Source: Candidatus Saccharibacteria bacterium QS_5_54_17 (GTDB lineage Bacteria > Patescibacteriota > Saccharimonadia > QS-5-54-17). Taken from it: a DNA stretch of 64,000 bases. The translations under genes were made by a program, and so were the position numbers. Shown here in pieces: positions 1,736-22,643 of the stretch (position 1 is the stretch's first letter; the number at the start of each line of letters is the position of its first letter). The notes under the pieces were generated by a model that saw nothing but the letters and a program-made list of their open reading frames with translations, was not told the origin of the DNA and made no database searches. Location of the stretch: NCBI GenBank assembly GCA_003022365.1, contig PXOU01000018.1, positions 75,964 to 139,963 on the forward strand, read 5' to 3'.

Positions 1736-2299
1736 TCACTCCACGCGGTAGGTATCGGCGGGGAAATCTTCTCCCTCGATGAATGTTTCCATAAACTGAG
1801 TAGCCGCCTGGAGAATCTCGGGTAACTTATCTTTCTCTTCATCGGCGAAACGGCTCAGTACGAACTTTTCCGCCGGCTGTTTTTCCAAATGTGCATTGGC
1901 GATTCCCAGCCGCAAACGGTTGAACCCGTCGCCGCAATGGGCGATAACGGATTTTATCCCGTTGTGCCCGGCGCTCTCCCCTCCCCGGCGGGCGCGCAAC
2001 GCAGCGAAATTAAGCGCGGCGTCATCATAGACGATCAGCGTGTCAGCAGGATGTATATCAAAAAAACGCTGGGCGGCGGCCACGGCTTCTCCGCTGCGGT
2101 TCATGTAGGTTTGGGGCTTTAAAAGTATGACCGGTTCGCCTGCCTGCTCCAAGCGGGCGGCCATCGATTTCAACTTCTTGTGCCGGGAAAAATCAACCCC
2201 TTTCTCGCCCGCCAGGGATTCGACCGCCATAAAGCCGGCGTTATGGCGGGTTCCCAGGTATTTTTTATCCGGATTACCCAGCCCCGCGATTAATTTCAC
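1736..2299 (-). CDS. pth: Peptidyl-tRNA hydrolase
   Basis: KLIAGLGNP...HNAGF...GHNG motifs. Probable GTG start at 2297-2299 preceded by GGAGGAG SD; the GTG overlaps the der TGA stop (GTGA). Confidence 0.85.
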   Translation of the reverse strand: MKLIAGLGNPDKKYLGTRHNAGFMAVESLAGEKGVDFSRHKKLKSMAARLEQAGEPVILLKPQTYMNRSGEAVAAAQRFFDIHPADTLIVYDDAALNFAALRARRGGESAGHNGIKSVIAHCGDGFNRLRLGIANAHLEKQPAEKFVLSRFADEEKDKLPEILQAATQFMETFIEGEDFPADTYRVE

Positions 2300-3639
2300 G
2301 ATGCTCCTCCTCTCCCTTTTTGATTTGCTCGACCGGCCTCCTGCTTCTCCCGCCATTGCAGCCGGATGGGCGTACCGTCAAAATCGAATCCTTCACGGAG
2401 CCGGGTCTCCAGATAGCGTTTATAGGACCAGTGCAGAAACCGGGTGTGCCGGCCATAGACGGTAAATGTCGGCGGCGCCGTATCGGTTTGGGTGATATAG
2501 TTGAGCTTGGGGTGCCGGTCTTTTAATCCGGCCGGCGGGTGGTCGGCGACGGCCGCTTGTAAGGTTTGATTCAAATCCTTGGTGGAAACGGTTTTTTGGC
2601 GGTTGCTGAATGCCTCTGAGGCGAACGGCAATAGTTTATTGACGTGGTGTTTTTCGGTCGCCGACACCAATAACAGTGGCGCCCACCAGACGAACTGGAA
2701 CGACGCTCCCAGGGTTTGTTCCAGCTGGCCACGGGCGTTATCGGTTCGTTCCGTCTGGTCCCATTTATTGACCACCACTACCAACCCCTTGCCGGCCTCT
2801 TTGACCATGCCGGCGATTCGCTGATCCTGGGCGGTTGCCGGTTCGGTGGCATCCAATACCAGCGCGCACACCTCGCATGTGCTGATAGCCCCCAAAGCCC
2901 GGAGCGAACTGAATCGCTCTATGTGTTTGCCGGTTTTGTTCTTCCGGCGCAGCCCGGCCGTGTCAGTTATGTGCCATGTCCGACCTTCATAAGGCACCCG
3001 TATTTCCGTCATATCCCTGGTGGTACCGGGTTCCCCGGAGACGATCGCTCGTTCATGCCCGGCCAGGACGTTGAGGAGGCTTGATTTGCCCACGTTGGGC
3101 CGGCCCAGTAAAGCCAACGTCGGCATGGTCGAGGCTTCGCCGGCAGGGTATTGGCTGGCGATGTCTACAATGGCATCCAACAAATCGCCCGACCCGCTGC
3201 CGTGAATAGCCGAAACCGGTATGCTGGGTTCCGGCAGCTTTTCCCGCTCGATCGGCTGCCCCGCTCGATCCGTTTTATTGATGGCGGTTATGAGGGGTTT
3301 GCCGCTTTTTTGCGCCTGTTTTATAACTTTGGCGTCTTCCTCGCTGAGGATGGTGCTGCCGTCGATGGTTACTACCATGATGTCCGCTTGCTCACGGGCT
3401 ACTTTGATTTGCTCCTGGACCGATCGGGCCAATTGGTCTTTTTCCTTTTCCAGCCCCGCGGTATCGACCAGCCAGAACTGCCTGCCCTGCCACTCCACGA
3501 TAGCTTCTACGCGGTCGCGCGTCGTACCCGGCGCCTCATGCACGATGGCTTTGCGTTGGCCCAACAATCGGTTGAATAGACTGGACTTGCCGACGTTGGC
3601 TCGACCGACGATGGTCACCACGGGAAGTTTTTCTGACAT
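2296..3639 (-). CDS. der: Ribosome-associated GTPase Der (EngA)
   Basis: 447 aa with two tandem G domains (GRANVGKSS and GRPNVGKSS P-loops, DTAG) and a KH-like C-terminus. Confidence 0.9.
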   Translation of the reverse strand: MSEKLPVVTIVGRANVGKSSLFNRLLGQRKAIVHEAPGTTRDRVEAIVEWQGRQFWLVDTAGLEKEKDQLARSVQEQIKVAREQADIMVVTIDGSTILSEEDAKVIKQAQKSGKPLITAINKTDRAGQPIEREKLPEPSIPVSAIHGSGSGDLLDAIVDIASQYPAGEASTMPTLALLGRPNVGKSSLLNVLAGHERAIVSGEPGTTRDMTEIRVPYEGRTWHITDTAGLRRKNKTGKHIERFSSLRALGAISTCEVCALVLDATEPATAQDQRIAGMVKEAGKGLVVVVNKWDQTERTDNARGQLEQTLGASFQFVWWAPLLLVSATEKHHVNKLLPFASEAFSNRQKTVSTKDLNQTLQAAVADHPPAGLKDRHPKLNYITQTDTAPPTFTVYGRHTRFLHWSYKRYLETRLREGFDFDGTPIRLQWREKQEAGRANQKGRGGAS

Positions 3640-3686
3640 ACCACTACTGTAACAAATAGGCTTGACAATTACTATAAATCATTGAC

Positions 3687-3716
3687 TTTTATTAATTTCT
3701 ATGCTAAAAATTGAGT
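3687..3716 (+). promoter_or_regulatory. Sigma70-like promoter (TTGACT-N17-TAAAAT)
   Basis: ttgact / 17-nt spacer / taaaat about 95 nt upstream of the 3812 ORF, inside an AT-rich islet. Confidence 0.4.
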
Positions 3717-3811
3717 AATTCCTATCCAAAATGATGGATGGGTGGTTTCGCCCCCGGCGAAGCAACGGCCAATCATCGGGCCTTAACGATGGACTTTGAA
3801 AAGGAGCTAAG

Positions 3812-4141
3812 ATGAGTCAGGTAGGCCCCTTCCAACTTATAAAGGGACCCAACCTATTTGAGTTAGTGTTTGCATACATGGGTGCCTTTGATGCCATGAA
3901 CCGCACTGTTAGGATGTGCACTAGTGAGGGGCTTGTTTATGAGCTTTGTATTTATGGCCTGGCCCACAAGGACAGTACGGGATATTGCCATGAATTTAAA
4001 GCGCGCGTGGTATCTATCGGAGTGGATCCTACAAACGTAGAGTCGAAAGAGTATTGGGTAACATTTCCCACTACCCCCTGGGATTTAGTTGAGGGGTACT
4101 TCGATACCGAAGCACGTAGGGGTAGTCTAAAGTTCGTCTAG
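3812..4141 (+). CDS. Hypothetical protein (orphan, low-GC islet)
   Basis: 109-aa ORF with a strong SD (AAGGAG 7 nt before ATG), promoter upstream and hairpin terminator downstream. GC clearly below the flanks. No recognisable domain. Confidence 0.55.
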   Translation: MSQVGPFQLIKGPNLFELVFAYMGAFDAMNRTVRMCTSEGLVYELCIYGLAHKDSTGYCHEFKARVVSIGVDPTNVESKEYWVTFPTTPWDLVEGYFDTEARRGSLKFV

Positions 4142-4236
4142 CTCCTTTTTTTGGTTGGGGTATCGCACGGTATGCCAACCTGAAGCATCGGTACCATAGG
4201 TGCTGATGCACCCGCGCGTGTGTGGGAGGTTGTATC

Positions 4237-4266
4237 GTCTCGAAGGTCGAGACACCTTTCTATTTA
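4237..4266 (+). terminator. Rho-independent terminator
   Basis: gtctcga-agg-tcgagac hairpin followed by acctttctattt. Confidence 0.45.
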
Positions 4267-4318
4267 CTCCTCCTACGCACGCGCGCCCTTTTCCCTATTT
4301 TTACCATCGAAACTAAGC

Positions 4319-5026
4319 TTAACTCTCATTTTCGCCCGTAATAAGACGATATTGGCCGTCGCTCAAATCGCCCAGGCTGTATTCGCCCAATTGGGTGCGC
4401 ACCAGGTCAGTCACCTGATAACCCAGCGCGGCGAAGGTGCGCCGGATCTGCCGGTTCCGGCCCTCATACATAGTGACCTGATAGGTATTCTTACCAGGCA
4501 CTCCCTCATCTGCTTTTTTGGTTCTCTCAGCTTCTCCTTCTCCAATTTCTAACTGGCTGACTCCGTCATCCAAATGCACCCCGTGGTGCAAGTTCGTTAT
4601 ATCGGCCGGGGTGAGCGGCTTATCCAGCCTTACTTGATACACTTTCTGCTTCTGGAATCCCGGATGCGTTAACCGGTAGGCTAGTTGGCCGTCGTTAGTG
4701 AGTAGTAAAAGCCCGCGGCTGTCTTTGTCCAGCCGGCCGATGGGTTTCAACTGACGCAGTTCCTCAGGTAGGAGCGCGTAGATGGTCGGATCATTGCCTT
4801 GCCGGGCACGGCTGACTACATAACGAAAAGGTTTGTGCAGCTTAACGGTGCGGGTAACCGGAAGCACCACCGGCTCCCCGTCCAGTTGGACGGTGTCATC
4901 CGGTCCGACTCGTTGCCCGAGTTCCCCCGCTTCCCCGTTGACCGTCACCCGCTCATCCGCGATTGCCTGATCTGCCTGCCGGCGGGATAACCCGGCTGCT
5001 CGGGCCAGATACTGATTTATCCTCAC
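4319..5026 (-). CDS. rsuA: rRNA pseudouridine synthase (RsuA/RluB family)
   Basis: S4 domain N-terminus (MRINQYLARAAGLSRRQA) plus PseudoU_synth core (GRLDKDSRGLLLLTNDG). Confidence 0.85.
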   Translation of the reverse strand: MRINQYLARAAGLSRRQADQAIADERVTVNGEAGELGQRVGPDDTVQLDGEPVVLPVTRTVKLHKPFRYVVSRARQGNDPTIYALLPEELRQLKPIGRLDKDSRGLLLLTNDGQLAYRLTHPGFQKQKVYQVRLDKPLTPADITNLHHGVHLDDGVSQLEIGEGEAERTKKADEGVPGKNTYQVTMYEGRNRQIRRTFAALGYQVTDLVRTQLGEYSLGDLSDGQYRLITGENES

Positions 5027-5838
5027 TCCGAAGCGGTTTGTTGCTGGGTTTGCTGGCCGCCTTCGGCCTGGCCGCCCTGGGCGCCGGATTGATCGCTGTC
5101 TTGCCCGTCTTGGCCTGTTGGCTGCTGGGCCTGGTTTGGTTGGCTTTGTGGGCTGGCTGCATCGCTCTGTTGCATCTGGTTGTCGATATCATTGATTTCA
5201 CTGGCCGCCTGGCTGCTGGTCGTTTTGCCCTGACCGGACGTGCGCTTGGATTGTTTGCTATTGGCTGTGTCCTCAGGCGCTTGGGTGTTTTCTTGACCTT
5301 GTTGATTTTGCCCATCTTGGCTCTGTTGATCTTGGCTCTGTTGGTTTTGGCTAGGTTGGCTATCTTGACCTTGGTTGTCTTGGGAATTTTCGGAACCTTC
5401 ACCGTCGTTTTCCGGTAATCGCCCACTGGAGGTGGTCACGATGGATGCGGCGCCCTCCTCGCCGTTTCCAGTGTTCTGGGACAGTTCTTTGACCGTTTCC
5501 ACCACGTCTTCCAGCGTGATCTGGGATTTGATCAAATACTTGTCGACGCCCAGCTGTTCGCCGCGCTCTTTATCCGATTCCTGGCTAAGCGCGGATAGCA
5601 TCACCACTTTGGTGTTTTCGGTTTCAGGGGTGGAGCGCAGGATGTCCAACACGTCGAACCCGCTGATTTTGGGCATCATGATATCGAGCAAAATCAGTTG
5701 CGGTTTTTCCGATACTGCTTTGGAAAGAGCTTCCTCGCCATCCGCGGCCAGCACCAGTTCGTGACCTTCAGCGCTTAGTCGGGCAGCATAGATTTCGCGG
5801 AGATTAATATCGTCTTCGACTAGTAAAACTTTAGACAT
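5023..5838 (-). CDS. Response regulator, receiver domain only, with Gln/Ser-rich disordered C-terminal tail
   Basis: REC domain (LLVEDD...LLDIMMP...K). No output domain. About 130 aa of Q/S/D-rich low complexity. Confidence 0.8.
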   Translation of the reverse strand: MSKVLLVEDDINLREIYAARLSAEGHELVLAADGEEALSKAVSEKPQLILLDIMMPKISGFDVLDILRSTPETENTKVVMLSALSQESDKERGEQLGVDKYLIKSQITLEDVVETVKELSQNTGNGEEGAASIVTTSSGRLPENDGEGSENSQDNQGQDSQPSQNQQSQDQQSQDGQNQQGQENTQAPEDTANSKQSKRTSGQGKTTSSQAASEINDIDNQMQQSDAASPQSQPNQAQQPTGQDGQDSDQSGAQGGQAEGGQQTQQQTASE

Positions 5839-21126: not shown

Positions 21127-22643
21127 ACGTCATACCCGATTTTCTTCAAATTATCTTTAATCTGCTGTTCCAGCTCATGGCTTTGTTCGAACTGCTCACC
21201 CAGGTCTTTGGTGAGGCGTTGCATTTTCTCTTCGAATGCTTCATCATCTTCCTCCACCTCTTCGGCGCCCACGTAACGGCCGGGCGTGAGAACGTATTCA
21301 TGTTCTTTTACTTCTTCCAGTGAAGCAGCTTTACAAAAACCGGGTGTGTCTTCATATTCCCCGCTCTCATCCCGCCAGGCGTGATAGGTACCAGCAACTC
21401 TAGCGATGTCTTCTTCCGAAAGTACGCGGTTGCGGCGATTGATCATATGGCCCATGTTGCGCGCGTCAATGAAGAGAATTTCATCTCTATCAGTACGTTC
21501 GCGGGAAACAAACCACAGACAGGCCGGAATGCCAGTATTGAAGAATAAATGACTCGGCAGCGTAACGATAGCATCTACTAACCCGGCTTCCAGGATATTC
21601 TTGCGAATATCGCCCTCTCCGGATGTATTGGAACTCATGGAGCCGTTAGCCAACACGAAGCCGGCAATGCCTTTTGGCCCCAGATGGTGGATGAAGTGCT
21701 GTACCCAGGCAAAGTTGGCATTATTTTTGGGCGGCGTGCCGAACTTCCAGCGCACGTCATTTTGCAACTGTTCTCCGCCCCAATCATCGTCATTAAATGG
21801 TGGATTGGCCAGTATGAAGTCGGCTTTAAGATCCGGATGTTTGTCGTTATGGAAAGAGTTGCCTTGGCGAATGTCGGCATCAATGCCACGAATGGCCATA
21901 TTCATCTTAGCAAGGCGCCACGTGGTTGGGTTCGATTCCTGCCCGTAAATGGCGATGTCGTCCAATCGGCCTTGATGGTGCCCCACGAATTTCTCCGACT
22001 GGACGAACATGCCGCCGCTACCGCAGCACGGGTCGTAAATTCTTCCTTTATACGGCTCGATCATTCCCGTTAAAAGCTGGACAATGCTTCTGGGTGTGTA
22101 GAACTGGCCGCCGCGCTTGCCTTCGGCATCGGCGAACATACCAATGAAGTATTCATAAATCCGGCCCAGAATATCCTTGCTGTTATGGCCATCGCCATTG
22201 AGCGAAATACTGCTGAAAAGATCAATCAATTCGCCGAGACGTTGCTTGTCCAAAGCTTCCCGTCCGTAGTTTTTGGGTAACACTCCTTTGAGTGACGGAT
22301 TATCACGCTCAATGGCATCCATGGCTTCATCAATGAGCGTACCGATGTTCGGTTGTTTGGCATTGTCGCGCAGATATGACCAGCGAGCTTCTGACGGTAC
22401 CCAAAAGACATTTTTAGCTGCATACCAATCGCGATCCTCGGGATCAAATTCCTCATCCAGTGCCTGCTGATAACGCTCATCAAAGGCATCGGAGATGTAT
22501 TTAAGGAAAATCAGTCCCAGCACCACGTGCTTATACTCGGCCGCGTCCATGTTGTTCCGCATCTTATTAGCCGACTGCCACAGTTTCTGTTCTACGTTTT
22601 GGATGTCCAAAACAAAAACTCCCTTACTTTTATACCGTTGCAC
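21123..22643 (-). CDS. hsdM: Type I R-M DNA methyltransferase subunit
   Basis: HsdM N-terminal domain, AdoMet motif I (DPCCGSGG), catalytic NPPF. Track start is GTG 22643. TTG 22610 with an aagggag SD is a likely alternative. TGaTATAAT extended -10 at about 22655-22663. Confidence 0.9.

What the first reader, a model, noticed from the sequence alone, without database searches (positions are those of the whole stretch)
3640..4320. Low-GC islet carrying an orphan small gene with its own promoter, SD and terminator
A roughly 0.7 kb AT-rich segment lies between der and rsuA (both minus strand, GC-rich). It contains a plus-strand TTGACT-N17-TAAAAT promoter, a strong AAGGAG SD, a 109-aa ORF with no recognisable domain, and a clean hairpin terminator. 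This is the signature of a recently acquired, independently expressed accessory gene inside a housekeeping block.
Basis: partly seen in the sequence, partly recalled or inferred. Interest (0 to 1): 0.5.

Follow-up and report, generated by a model that had tools for sequence, protein, structure and literature searches.

The report
Self-closing small-protein gene of Saccharibacteria
The "orphan" 109-aa gene between der and rsuA is a very divergent copy of a widespread but undescribed small-protein family of Saccharibacteria, and its mRNA appears built to shut its own ribosome-binding site by pairing it with the stop-codon region.

Summary
The described elements are all present: promoter, AAGGAG SD, 109-aa ORF (3812-4141) without a known domain, and a hairpin with a T-tract. 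Two claims fail.

- **Composition:** the islet's GC (0.465) is only the 11th percentile of same-size windows.
- **Orphan status:** it links through P0004 and a syntenic ORF in another Saccharibacteria MAG (L002) to a family of hundreds of ~107-125-aa proteins. The family has no Pfam, NCBIfam, PHROG, PADLOC or PDB match. Every family locus that could be named is Saccharibacteria.

Family genes are stand-alone units with a consensus promoter, a two-hairpin leader with covarying stems, a strong SD and a terminator. A covariance model of that leader hits the window exactly at 3715-3814.

Many members carry a sequence at or just after the stop codon that is complementary to their own SD, and it changes in step with the SD. 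The window has the longest case: 3799-3809 pairs with 4139-4149 (11/11), extending over the AUG. This helix appears in both the MFE and centroid folds.

The unit sits at the same site in outgroup L002 and is absent in two nearer relatives. Old residence with loss is therefore likelier than recent gain. Protein function is unknown; the fold has no close structural relative.

The parts
3682..3710 (+). Sigma-70-type promoter: -35 TTGACT (3682-3687), 17-nt spacer with TG at 3702-3703, -10 TAAAAA (3705-3710)
   Evidence: Sequence and consensus scan. 71 of 75 family loci carry TTGAC(A/T)-N16-19-TAxAAT at the equivalent place.
3712..3811 (+). Structured 5' leader of about 100 nt, homologous to the family leader
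   Evidence: Covariance model R1, built from 28 other leaders, hits 3715-3814 at 16.2 bits, E 8e-4 with filters off. It is the only hit in 3600-4400 with E below 1. With default filters over the whole window it found nothing. The leader aligns with the L002 leader.
3721..3742 (+). Leader hairpin H1 (CCTATCCA/AAATGA/TGGATGGG)
   Evidence: Folds. R1 aligns it to family H1. Family H1 is 87% paired, with 6 of 7 pairs changed on both sides.
3745..3763 (+). Extra leader hairpin (GTTTCGCC/CCC/GGCGAAGC), shared with L002 with a fully different stem sequence
   Evidence: Folds. L002 has GTTCGGGA/TATA/TCCCGAAC between the same GGGTGG and CAACGGC blocks.
3774..3791 (+). Leader hairpin H2 (CATCG/GGCCTTAA/CGATG)
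   Evidence: Fold. L002 has CTTCGA/GCCTTAT/TCGAAG at the same place: changed stem, conserved GCCTTA loop.
3799..3815 (+). 5' arm of the long-range helix: AAAAGGAGCTA[A]GATGA, covering the SD (AAGGAG 3801-3806) and the start codon (3812-3814)
   Evidence: 11-nt perfect complement to 4139-4149. Duplex -20.7 kcal/mol against -11.2 for shuffles, 0 of 100 as low. Paired in the MFE and centroid folds of the 583-nt transcript.
3812..4141 (+). CDS, 109 aa: divergent member of an unnamed Saccharibacteria small-protein family
   Evidence: phmmer to P0004, E 4e-4 over 1.84 billion proteins, full length. Profile searches. Mainstream-only profile 10.7 bits. AF2 pLDDT 83, with the same strand-helix-strands layout as the mainstream model.
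4134..4149 (+). 3' arm of the long-range helix: TCGTC + TAG (stop) + CTCCTTTT, an anti-SD/anti-start element overlapping the stop codon
   Evidence: The window's 11-nt match is the longest among 54 family and 279 control genes.
4153..4180 (+). 3'-UTR hairpin A
   Evidence: Fold of 4139-4320: -79.5 kcal/mol, z -7.8. Kept in the whole-transcript fold.
4185..4209 (+). 3'-UTR hairpin B (11-bp stem)
4213..4303 (+). Terminator candidate: 17-bp G+C-rich outer stem 4213-4285 enclosing hairpin 4237-4253, then a T-rich tract 4289-4303. It lies between the convergent ORF and rsuA.
   Evidence: Not repeated elsewhere in the window.
2296..3639 (-). Context only: der/engA
   Evidence: Pfam MMR_HSR1 x2 + KH_dom-like.
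4319..5026 (-). Context only: rsuA/rluB-type pseudouridine synthase
   Evidence: Pfam S4 + PseudoU_synth_2.

Best explanation
Window 3682-4303 is one complete monocistronic unit. It encodes a fast-evolving member of a chromosomal ~107-125-aa protein family with no database name; every locus that could be named is Saccharibacteria.

**Shown**
- The promoter, a leader homologous to the family's two-hairpin leader, a strong SD, an intact ORF that fits the family fold, and a stem-plus-T-tract terminator.
- The stop-codon region (4134-4149) is complementary to the SD and start codon (3799-3815). The same arrangement recurs across the family, and the 3' element changes in step with the SD.

**Inferred**
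- In the finished mRNA this helix closes the ribosome-binding site, so translation is limited mainly to the time before the 3' end is made.
- Because the stop codon lies inside the helix, a terminating ribosome re-opens the site. Translated and untranslated transcripts would then behave differently, and closed mRNAs would be prone to decay.
- The leader hairpins are a second, family-specific control or stability element. One possibility is that they are bound by the protein itself.

**History (inferred).** The unit was already at rsuA-der in the common ancestor with L002 and was lost in the L001 and L008 lineages.

**Protein function.** Unknown: a soluble alpha+beta protein, probably a binding module rather than an enzyme.
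For: **Family membership**
- P0004 matches full length, E 4e-4 over 1.84e9 proteins.
- Profile searches give 8, then 681 proteins; the best 120 have E < 2e-28 and are 107-148 aa.
- The L002 ORF lies at the same locus.
- A mainstream-only profile ranks the L002 ORF and ORF109 first and second among all six-frame segments of the window plus L001-L009.
- The two AF2 models share a topology, pLDDT 83 and 84.

**Taxonomy.** Neighbours of L018, L026, L112 and L113 cluster at >=90% with 'Candidatus Saccharibacteria bacterium' proteins.

**Leader**
- 82% of cells are paired, against 31-46% when partners are slid.
- 60 cells changed on both sides, against 6-15 in the slid controls; 0 of 500 shuffles reach this.
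- The model hits about 80 loci at 36-92 bits, each time ending at the family start codon. It also hits L002 (E 0.04) and the window (E 8e-4).

**Anti-SD**
- A perfect complement of >=7 nt occurs in 26% of 54 family genes against 1.4% of 279 SD-bearing control genes (Fisher 3e-9).
- At the level of 22 protein clusters the duplex energies differ from controls with p 4e-5.
- Matched variants: GGAGGUA/UACCUCC, GGAGUAUU/AAUACUCC, GGAGGUUC/GAACUUCC, GGGGG/CCCCC, and the window's GGAGCUA/UAGCUCC.
- The helix is present in the MFE and centroid folds.
- Distant anti-SD sequences pair with the RBS, block initiation and speed decay in B. subtilis (PMC12697547). The icaR mRNA does the same with its 3' UTR (PMC3868564).

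**History.** der identities are window-L001 71%, window-L008 71%, L001-L008 69% and about 60% to L002.
Against: - There are no expression, structure-probing or translation data for any member.
- ORF109 keeps only 12 of 38 columns that are >=90% conserved, and it has lost most of the EHEDGSGESF loop.
- Its score against the mainstream profile is weak: 10.7 bits, E 0.06 in the six-frame search. It could be drifting towards loss.
- The anti-SD is missing in several subgroups, including the largest one (MSTMRK...), and in L002.
- The family loci are related, so the counts are not independent.
- The R1 hit in the window appears only with filters off.
- The -10 box (TAAAAA) is weaker than the family's TATAAT.
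- Ancestral presence versus two insertions at one site rests on four genomes.
Confidence: 0.6

Rival explanations
1. Recently acquired accessory gene. The unit was inserted by horizontal transfer between rsuA and der in this lineage, separately from L002.
For: - GC is lower than both neighbours: 0.465 against 0.57.
- In other family loci the gene is about 3 points richer in GC than its surroundings; here it is about 6 points poorer.
- It is absent in L001 and L008.
- The family sits at many different loci in other genomes: next to thrS, hisS, tgt, gyrB or PBP genes.
Against: - Same site and orientation in outgroup L002, with shared leader blocks not seen in mainstream leaders.
- GC and GC3 are only about 1.1 SD below the window's genes.
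- No direct repeats, integrase, tRNA target or remnants.
- No family member in IMG/VR, phage or plasmid collections.
Confidence: 0.2
2. Decaying or non-functional relic. The ORF is still open but no longer under selection, and the complementarity and hairpins are leftovers.
For: - Only 12 of 38 conserved columns are kept, and the core acidic loop is degenerate.
- The profile score is weak.
- The -10 box is weaker than in the family.
- Sister lineages have already lost the gene.
Against: - The ORF is full length with no frameshift or stop.
- The GC1 > GC2 < GC3 pattern matches real genes.
- Residues invariant in the 8-sequence alignment (G12, P13, L18, H52, G57, R102, G104) are kept.
- The RBS-stop helix is the longest and most exact in the family. 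It uses a lineage-specific SD spacer (GCUA/UAGC), so both arms have been maintained together.
- Divergent paralogs with the same leader and a non-acidic loop exist elsewhere, for example in L049.
Confidence: 0.15
3. DNA-level element. The 11-bp inverted repeat flanking the CDS (3799-3809 and 4139-4149) is a recombination site for inversion or mobilisation of a gene cassette, not an RNA helix.
For: A perfect inverted repeat brackets exactly the coding sequence.
Against: - In every subgroup the repeat coincides with the SD and spacer and changes with them. G.U-type substitutions (CTTCC opposite GGAGG) work only in RNA.
- There is no recombinase next to the unit.
- No locus among about 80 has the CDS inverted relative to its promoter.
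Confidence: 0.03

Closest known systems
icaR mRNA of Staphylococcus aureus (5'-UTR/3'-UTR pairing; PMC3868564)
   Same: A pyrimidine-rich anti-SD motif in the 3' part of the same mRNA is complementary to the SD. In icaR this blocks initiation and creates an RNase III substrate.
   Different: - Here the element overlaps the stop codon and also covers the start codon.
- It recurs across a whole protein family and changes in step with the SD.
- Nothing has been tested experimentally.
hbs (HU) mRNA of Bacillus subtilis (14-bp 5'/3'-UTR interaction; PMC5737220)
   Same: A small gene with a highly structured leader, a strong SD and a long-range 5'-3' helix that ties mRNA fate to translation initiation.
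   Different: In hbs the helix masks an RNase Y site in the leader and stabilises the mRNA. Here the helix covers the SD and AUG itself, which predicts repression.
Long-range anti-SD-like sequences in B. subtilis mRNAs (Gill et al. 2025, PMC12697547)
   Same: Anti-SD-like 8-mers hundreds of nucleotides downstream pair with the RBS, inhibit initiation and promote decay.
   Different: That study finds such sequences depleted from natural genes. In this family they are enriched at one fixed place, 26% against 1.4% in controls, which points to selection for the pairing.
Autoregulatory leaders of ribosomal-protein and other small-protein operons
   Same: A conserved structured leader found only upstream of one gene family.
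   Different: No Rfam family matches, and binding of the product to the leader is only a guess. Median pI of the mainstream members in the 121-sequence alignment is 7.7, and a conserved loop is acidic.
CBF-beta, cystatin and NTF2-like alpha+beta folds, and the T6SS immunity protein Tni2
   Same: One helix packed on a curved antiparallel sheet. These are the best structural matches.

Membership tests
Unnamed Saccharibacteria small-protein family (consensus ..GPNKD.LFDACKYAY...GIEHEDGSGESFNL.GYC...AYYN.K.R.G.I.F) | Sequence similarity to family members beyond chance | tested here: met
   - P0004 matches full length, E 4e-4 over 1.84e9 proteins.
- P0004 scores 39 bits and P0005 32 bits against a profile built without them or ORF109.
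- ORF109 itself scores only 10.7 bits, E 3e-5 as a single test and 0.06 in the six-frame search.
- The link therefore runs through P0004 and P0005.
Unnamed Saccharibacteria small-protein family | Core loop I/L-E-H-E-D-G-S-G-E-S-F | tested here: not met
   ORF109 has L-A-H-K-D-S-T-G-Y-C-H; only H, D and the second G are kept. The syntenic L002 protein has IHESGTGHNF, and the L049 paralog has QHVVGSPHF. The loop is therefore not universal in the wider family.
Unnamed Saccharibacteria small-protein family | N-terminal GP(N/S) and C-terminal (Y/F)(Y/F)....R.G.(I/L) motifs; length 105-125 aa | tested here: met
   GPN at residues 12-14, GYFDTEARRGSL at 95-106, length 109 aa.
Unnamed Saccharibacteria small-protein family | Shared predicted fold | tested here: met
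   ORF109 model: strand, helix, then five strands, pLDDT 83, pTM 0.73. Mainstream model (P0019): same order with one extra short strand, pLDDT 84. Caveat: the ORF109 model used the family alignment.
Family gene unit (promoter, two-hairpin leader, SD, terminator) | Leader RNA matching the family covariance model and ending at the start codon | tested here: met
   R1 hits 3715-3814 at 16.2 bits, E 8e-4, with filters off only. There was no hit with default filters. Family loci score 36-92 bits.
Family gene unit | Consensus promoter with TG-extended -10 at 76-109 nt before the ATG | tested here: met
   TTGACT-N17-TAAAAA with TG upstream, 101 nt before the ATG.
icaR-type 3'-element/SD pairing | Extended complementarity between the SD region and the 3' end of the same mRNA, beyond chance | tested here: met
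   11/11 nt plus 5 more pairs. Duplex -20.7 kcal/mol against -11.2 in shuffles. Longest of 333 genes examined. Present in the MFE and centroid folds.
icaR-type 3'-element/SD pairing | Pairing forms in vivo, blocks initiation and triggers RNase III cleavage | not testable with these tools
   This needs structure probing, reporter mutagenesis and RNase assays.
Horizontally acquired genomic islet | Composition outside the host range | tested here: not met
   11th percentile of windows; GC and GC3 about -1.1 SD.
Horizontally acquired genomic islet | Mobility signatures (integrase, flanking direct repeats, tRNA target, copies in mobile-element collections) | tested here: not met
   None found.
Horizontally acquired genomic islet | Absent from close relatives at an otherwise syntenic site | tested here: inconclusive
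   Absent in L001 and L008, present in outgroup L002.
Intrinsic terminator | G+C-rich stem followed by a U-tract | tested here: met
   Stem 4213-4285 (17 bp) with T-rich 4289-4303, and inner hairpin 4237-4253. In silico only; the T-tract is interrupted by C.
Any Rfam family | Match at the gathering score | tested here: not met
   Only two tRNAs in the window. Nothing below E 0.76 in 3500-4500. Only tRNAs in seven family loci.

The most novel reading that the evidence does not exclude
Saccharibacteria carry a lineage-specific, tightly controlled small-protein gene class. Its mRNAs combine a dedicated two-hairpin leader (a new cis-regulatory RNA motif) with a stop-codon-embedded anti-RBS that closes the message into a loop. 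Translation termination itself would then re-open initiation. This would be a translation-coupled on/off latch selected across a protein family, with the product possibly acting on its own leader.
Probability: 0.3. Interest if true: 0.65.

Novelty: new variant of a known kind. Interest (0 to 1): 0.5.

Why it matters
- **An annotation gap.** A protein family with hundreds of members has no entry in Pfam, NCBIfam, PHROGs, PADLOC or the PDB. Every locus that could be named belongs to Saccharibacteria. It comes with a candidate RNA motif that could be submitted as a new family.
- **A natural test case.** A recent B. subtilis mutagenesis study (PMC12697547) finds distant anti-SD sequences repressive and generally depleted from genes. 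Here they are instead kept at one fixed position across a family and change together with the SD. This offers a ready system for studying long-range mRNA self-pairing in bacteria.
- **A caution for genome scans.** 'Low-GC orphan with its own signals' here marked an old, fast-evolving resident gene, not a recent import.

Tried and rejected
- **Known RNA families:** the Rfam scans found nothing in the islet beyond chance-level hits such as mir-354 (E 0.76) and an Fst antitoxin RNA (E 5.7).
- **Known protein families and solved structures:** Pfam, PHROGs, NCBIfam, PADLOC and PDB sequence searches were empty.
- **Fold searches:** only generic matches. The afdb50 library was unavailable.
- **Exact-sequence contig look-up of the ORF:** nothing on record.
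- **Remnant of the Peptidase_S11 gene that fills this slot in other Saccharimonadia:** a profile of six S11 proteins gives no hit in the islet (E about 1). One weak tblastn match from L004 (18/55 identities, minus strand) is not backed by the profile.
- **Remnant of L002's zinc-ribbon ORF in the 3' spacer:** none.
- **Repeated or mobile element:** the 5' and 3' spacers and the ORF have no second copy in the window. The empty sites of L001 and L008 hold no leftovers.
- **Second family copy in the window:** none.
- **tRNA linkage:** tRNA genes lie next to the unit in some loci (L002, L026, L040/41, L093) but not consistently.
- **Literature:** searches found no description of the family or the leader.
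Full report
**1. The observation**

The window comes from the MAG 'Candidatus Saccharibacteria bacterium QS_5_54_17'. The ORF is its hypothetical protein BRC19_02820.

der (2296-3639, -) and an RsuA/RluB-type pseudouridine synthase (4319-5026, -) are confirmed by Pfam. Between them lie 679 bp with GC 0.465, against 0.577 and 0.565 for the flanking genes.

| Element | Coordinates | Note |
|---|---|---|
| -35 box | 3682-3687 | TTGACT |
| SD | 3801-3806 | AAGGAG |
| ORF | 3812-4141 | 109 aa |
| Terminator candidate | 4213-4285, then 4289-4303 | 17-bp stem, T-rich tract |

These are read.

The composition is not unusual. The islet is at the 11th percentile of equal-sized windows. The ORF's GC (0.473) and GC3 (0.50) are about 1.1 SD below the window's genes. 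The real compositional outlier is a type I restriction-modification cluster at 14.8-22.6 kb, with GC 0.33-0.41.

**2. Not an orphan**

A word-indexed search of 5.8 billion proteins found only the ORF itself. An exhaustive phmmer over 1.84 billion representatives found a 108-aa protein, P0004, aligned end to end at E 4e-4.

Synteny gave a second link. HK-RR-rsuA-[slot]-der-pth-dprA is conserved in Saccharibacteria. In L002 the slot holds an opposite-strand ORF, P0005, with the same GP..L, H..G.G and GY....R.G pattern.

A profile of these three sequences found 8 proteins. A profile of the 8 found 681, of which the best 120 have E < 2e-28 and are 107-148 aa.

- No member has a Pfam, PHROG, NCBIfam, PADLOC or PDB sequence match.
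- A profile built only from mainstream members scores P0004 at 39 bits, P0005 at 32 bits and ORF109 at 10.7 bits.
- In a six-frame search of the window plus nine relatives, that profile ranks P0005 and ORF109 first and second.
- ORF109 keeps only 12 of 38 highly conserved columns and has lost most of the EHEDGSGESF loop. It is a very divergent member.
- Divergent paralogs with a non-acidic loop also exist elsewhere.

Neighbouring genes of four mainstream loci cluster at >=90% identity with proteins labelled Candidatus Saccharibacteria. No member occurs in IMG/VR, GenBank phages or PLSDB plasmids.

**3. A conserved gene unit**

In about 80 loci the gene stands alone, at varied chromosomal places.

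- 71 of 75 loci have TTGAC(A/T)-N16-19-TAxAAT.
- A 76-109-nt leader with two hairpins follows, then AAAGGAGG and a hairpin terminator.

On a 28-sequence alignment the two hairpins are 82% paired, against 31-46% when partners are slid. They hold 60 cells changed on both sides, against 6-15 in the slid controls, and no shuffle out of 500 reaches this.

A covariance model of this leader, R1, gave the following results.

- It hits the family loci at 36-92 bits, each time ending at the family start codon.
- Its other hits of 30 bits or more precede divergent paralogs; weaker ones (below 30 bits) precede unrelated small ORFs.
- It finds L002's leader at E 0.04.
- With filters off it finds the window at 3715-3814, 16.2 bits, E 8e-4. 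This is the only hit with E below 1 in that 800-nt stretch.

The window and L002 leaders share blocks that mainstream leaders lack: TAATTCC, GGGTGGTT, CAACGGC and a GCCTTA loop. The stems between these blocks are fully different but still pair.

**4. The RBS-stop helix**

TAGCTCCTTTT (4139-4149: the stop codon plus 8 nt) is the exact reverse complement of AAAAGGAGCTA (3799-3809). TCGTC (4134-4138) pairs with GATGA (3811-3815), which includes the start codon.

- The duplex energy is -20.7 kcal/mol, against -11.2 for shuffles.
- The helix appears in both the MFE and the centroid fold of the 583-nt transcript.

The same arrangement occurs in many subgroups, and the 3' element tracks the SD and spacer.

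| SD side | 3' side |
|---|---|
| GGAGGUA | UACCUCC |
| GGAGUAUU | AAUACUCC |
| GGAGGUUC | GAACUUCC |
| GGGGG | CCCCC |
| GGAGCUA (window) | UAGCUCC (window) |

P0004's locus has a 9-bp version with two G.U pairs.

A perfect match of >=7 nt occurs in 26% of 54 family genes, against 1.4% of 279 other SD-bearing genes from the same DNA (Fisher 3e-9). The window's is the longest. The difference holds at the level of 22 protein clusters (p 4e-5).

The feature is absent from some subgroups, including the largest, and from L002, where a second small ORF follows directly.

**5. Likely mechanism (inference)**

Published work shows three relevant things.

- Anti-SD sequences hundreds of nucleotides downstream pair with the RBS, block initiation and speed decay (PMC12697547).
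- icaR uses its 3' UTR in this way (PMC3868564).
- hbs uses a 5'/3' helix to couple stability to initiation (PMC5737220).

By analogy, the finished mRNA here should be closed. Ribosomes would load mainly on nascent transcripts. Because the stop codon lies inside the helix, a terminating ribosome would transiently re-expose the RBS. The leader hairpins add a second, family-specific layer whose ligand is unknown.

**6. History**

der identities make the window, L001 and L008 roughly equidistant (69-71%), with L002 outside (about 60%).

| Genome | Contents of the rsuA-der slot |
|---|---|
| Window | The unit |
| L002 | A homologous unit |
| L001 | 75 bp, empty |
| L008 | 149 bp, empty |
| L003-L009 | Peptidase_S11 gene |

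No remnants or insertion scars were found.

Ancestral presence followed by loss fits best. Independent insertion cannot be excluded with four genomes.

**7. Verdict**

The features are real and the unit is self-contained. It is neither an orphan nor demonstrably recent. Its interest lies in the undescribed family, its leader motif and the family-wide RBS-stop pairing. All of these rest on computation so far.

Noticed in passing
window 14785-22643 (-): A type I restriction-modification cluster: HsdR 14785-17889, HsdS 18006-19148, HsdM 21123-22643. A 252-aa unknown ORF, a DUF2321 gene (19900-20232) and a DUF3800 gene (20482-21126) are wedged between hsdS and hsdM. GC is 0.33-0.41 and GC3 about 0.29, which makes this the real compositional outlier of the window.
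   Followed up: partly
L002 3839-3964 (-): A tRNA-like sequence of 126 nt. Rfam's tRNA model scores it 51.8 bits, but ARAGORN calls nothing. It has normal acceptor, D and T arms with an insert of about 50 nt, and it sits between a consensus promoter and the leader of the family gene.
   Followed up: partly
L002 about 3192-3350 (-): A 51-aa ORF with four CxxCxGxG-type zinc-ribbon motifs and its own SD directly follows the family gene. It has no counterpart in the window.
   Followed up: partly
L003-L009, between rsuA and der (e.g. L003 5096-5998): In more distant Saccharimonadia the rsuA-der slot holds a same-strand Peptidase_S11 (D-Ala-D-Ala carboxypeptidase) gene. It was not found in the window or in the L001, L002 and L008 loci.
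   Followed up: yes
window 5023-5838 (-): A response regulator whose receiver domain is followed by a Q/S/G-rich low-complexity tail of about 150 aa instead of an output domain.
   Followed up: no
window 4153-4209 (+): Two stable hairpins (A and B) lie between the anti-SD and the terminator. The 182-nt spacer folds with z -7.8. They are absent from other family loci, which terminate within about 50 nt of the stop codon. Their role is unknown.
   Followed up: partly
family leaders, e.g. L053 429-517, L058 3875-3964: The apical loop of leader hairpin H2 carries a conserved (G/A)UAUG or GGAUG. This resembles the gene's own start-codon context (CGUAUG) and could be a start-site mimic.
   Followed up: no
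L049 749-820 and downstream; L061 1765-1849 and downstream: Further copies of the family leader precede divergent paralogs. One is 150 aa with QHVVGSPHF in place of the acidic loop. The other is a 90-aa, possibly truncated, second copy.
   Followed up: partly
L026 8550-8884; L040 446-522; L041 526-602; L093 1205-1280: tRNA genes lie within about 200 nt of the family unit in several unrelated loci, but not consistently.
   Followed up: partly
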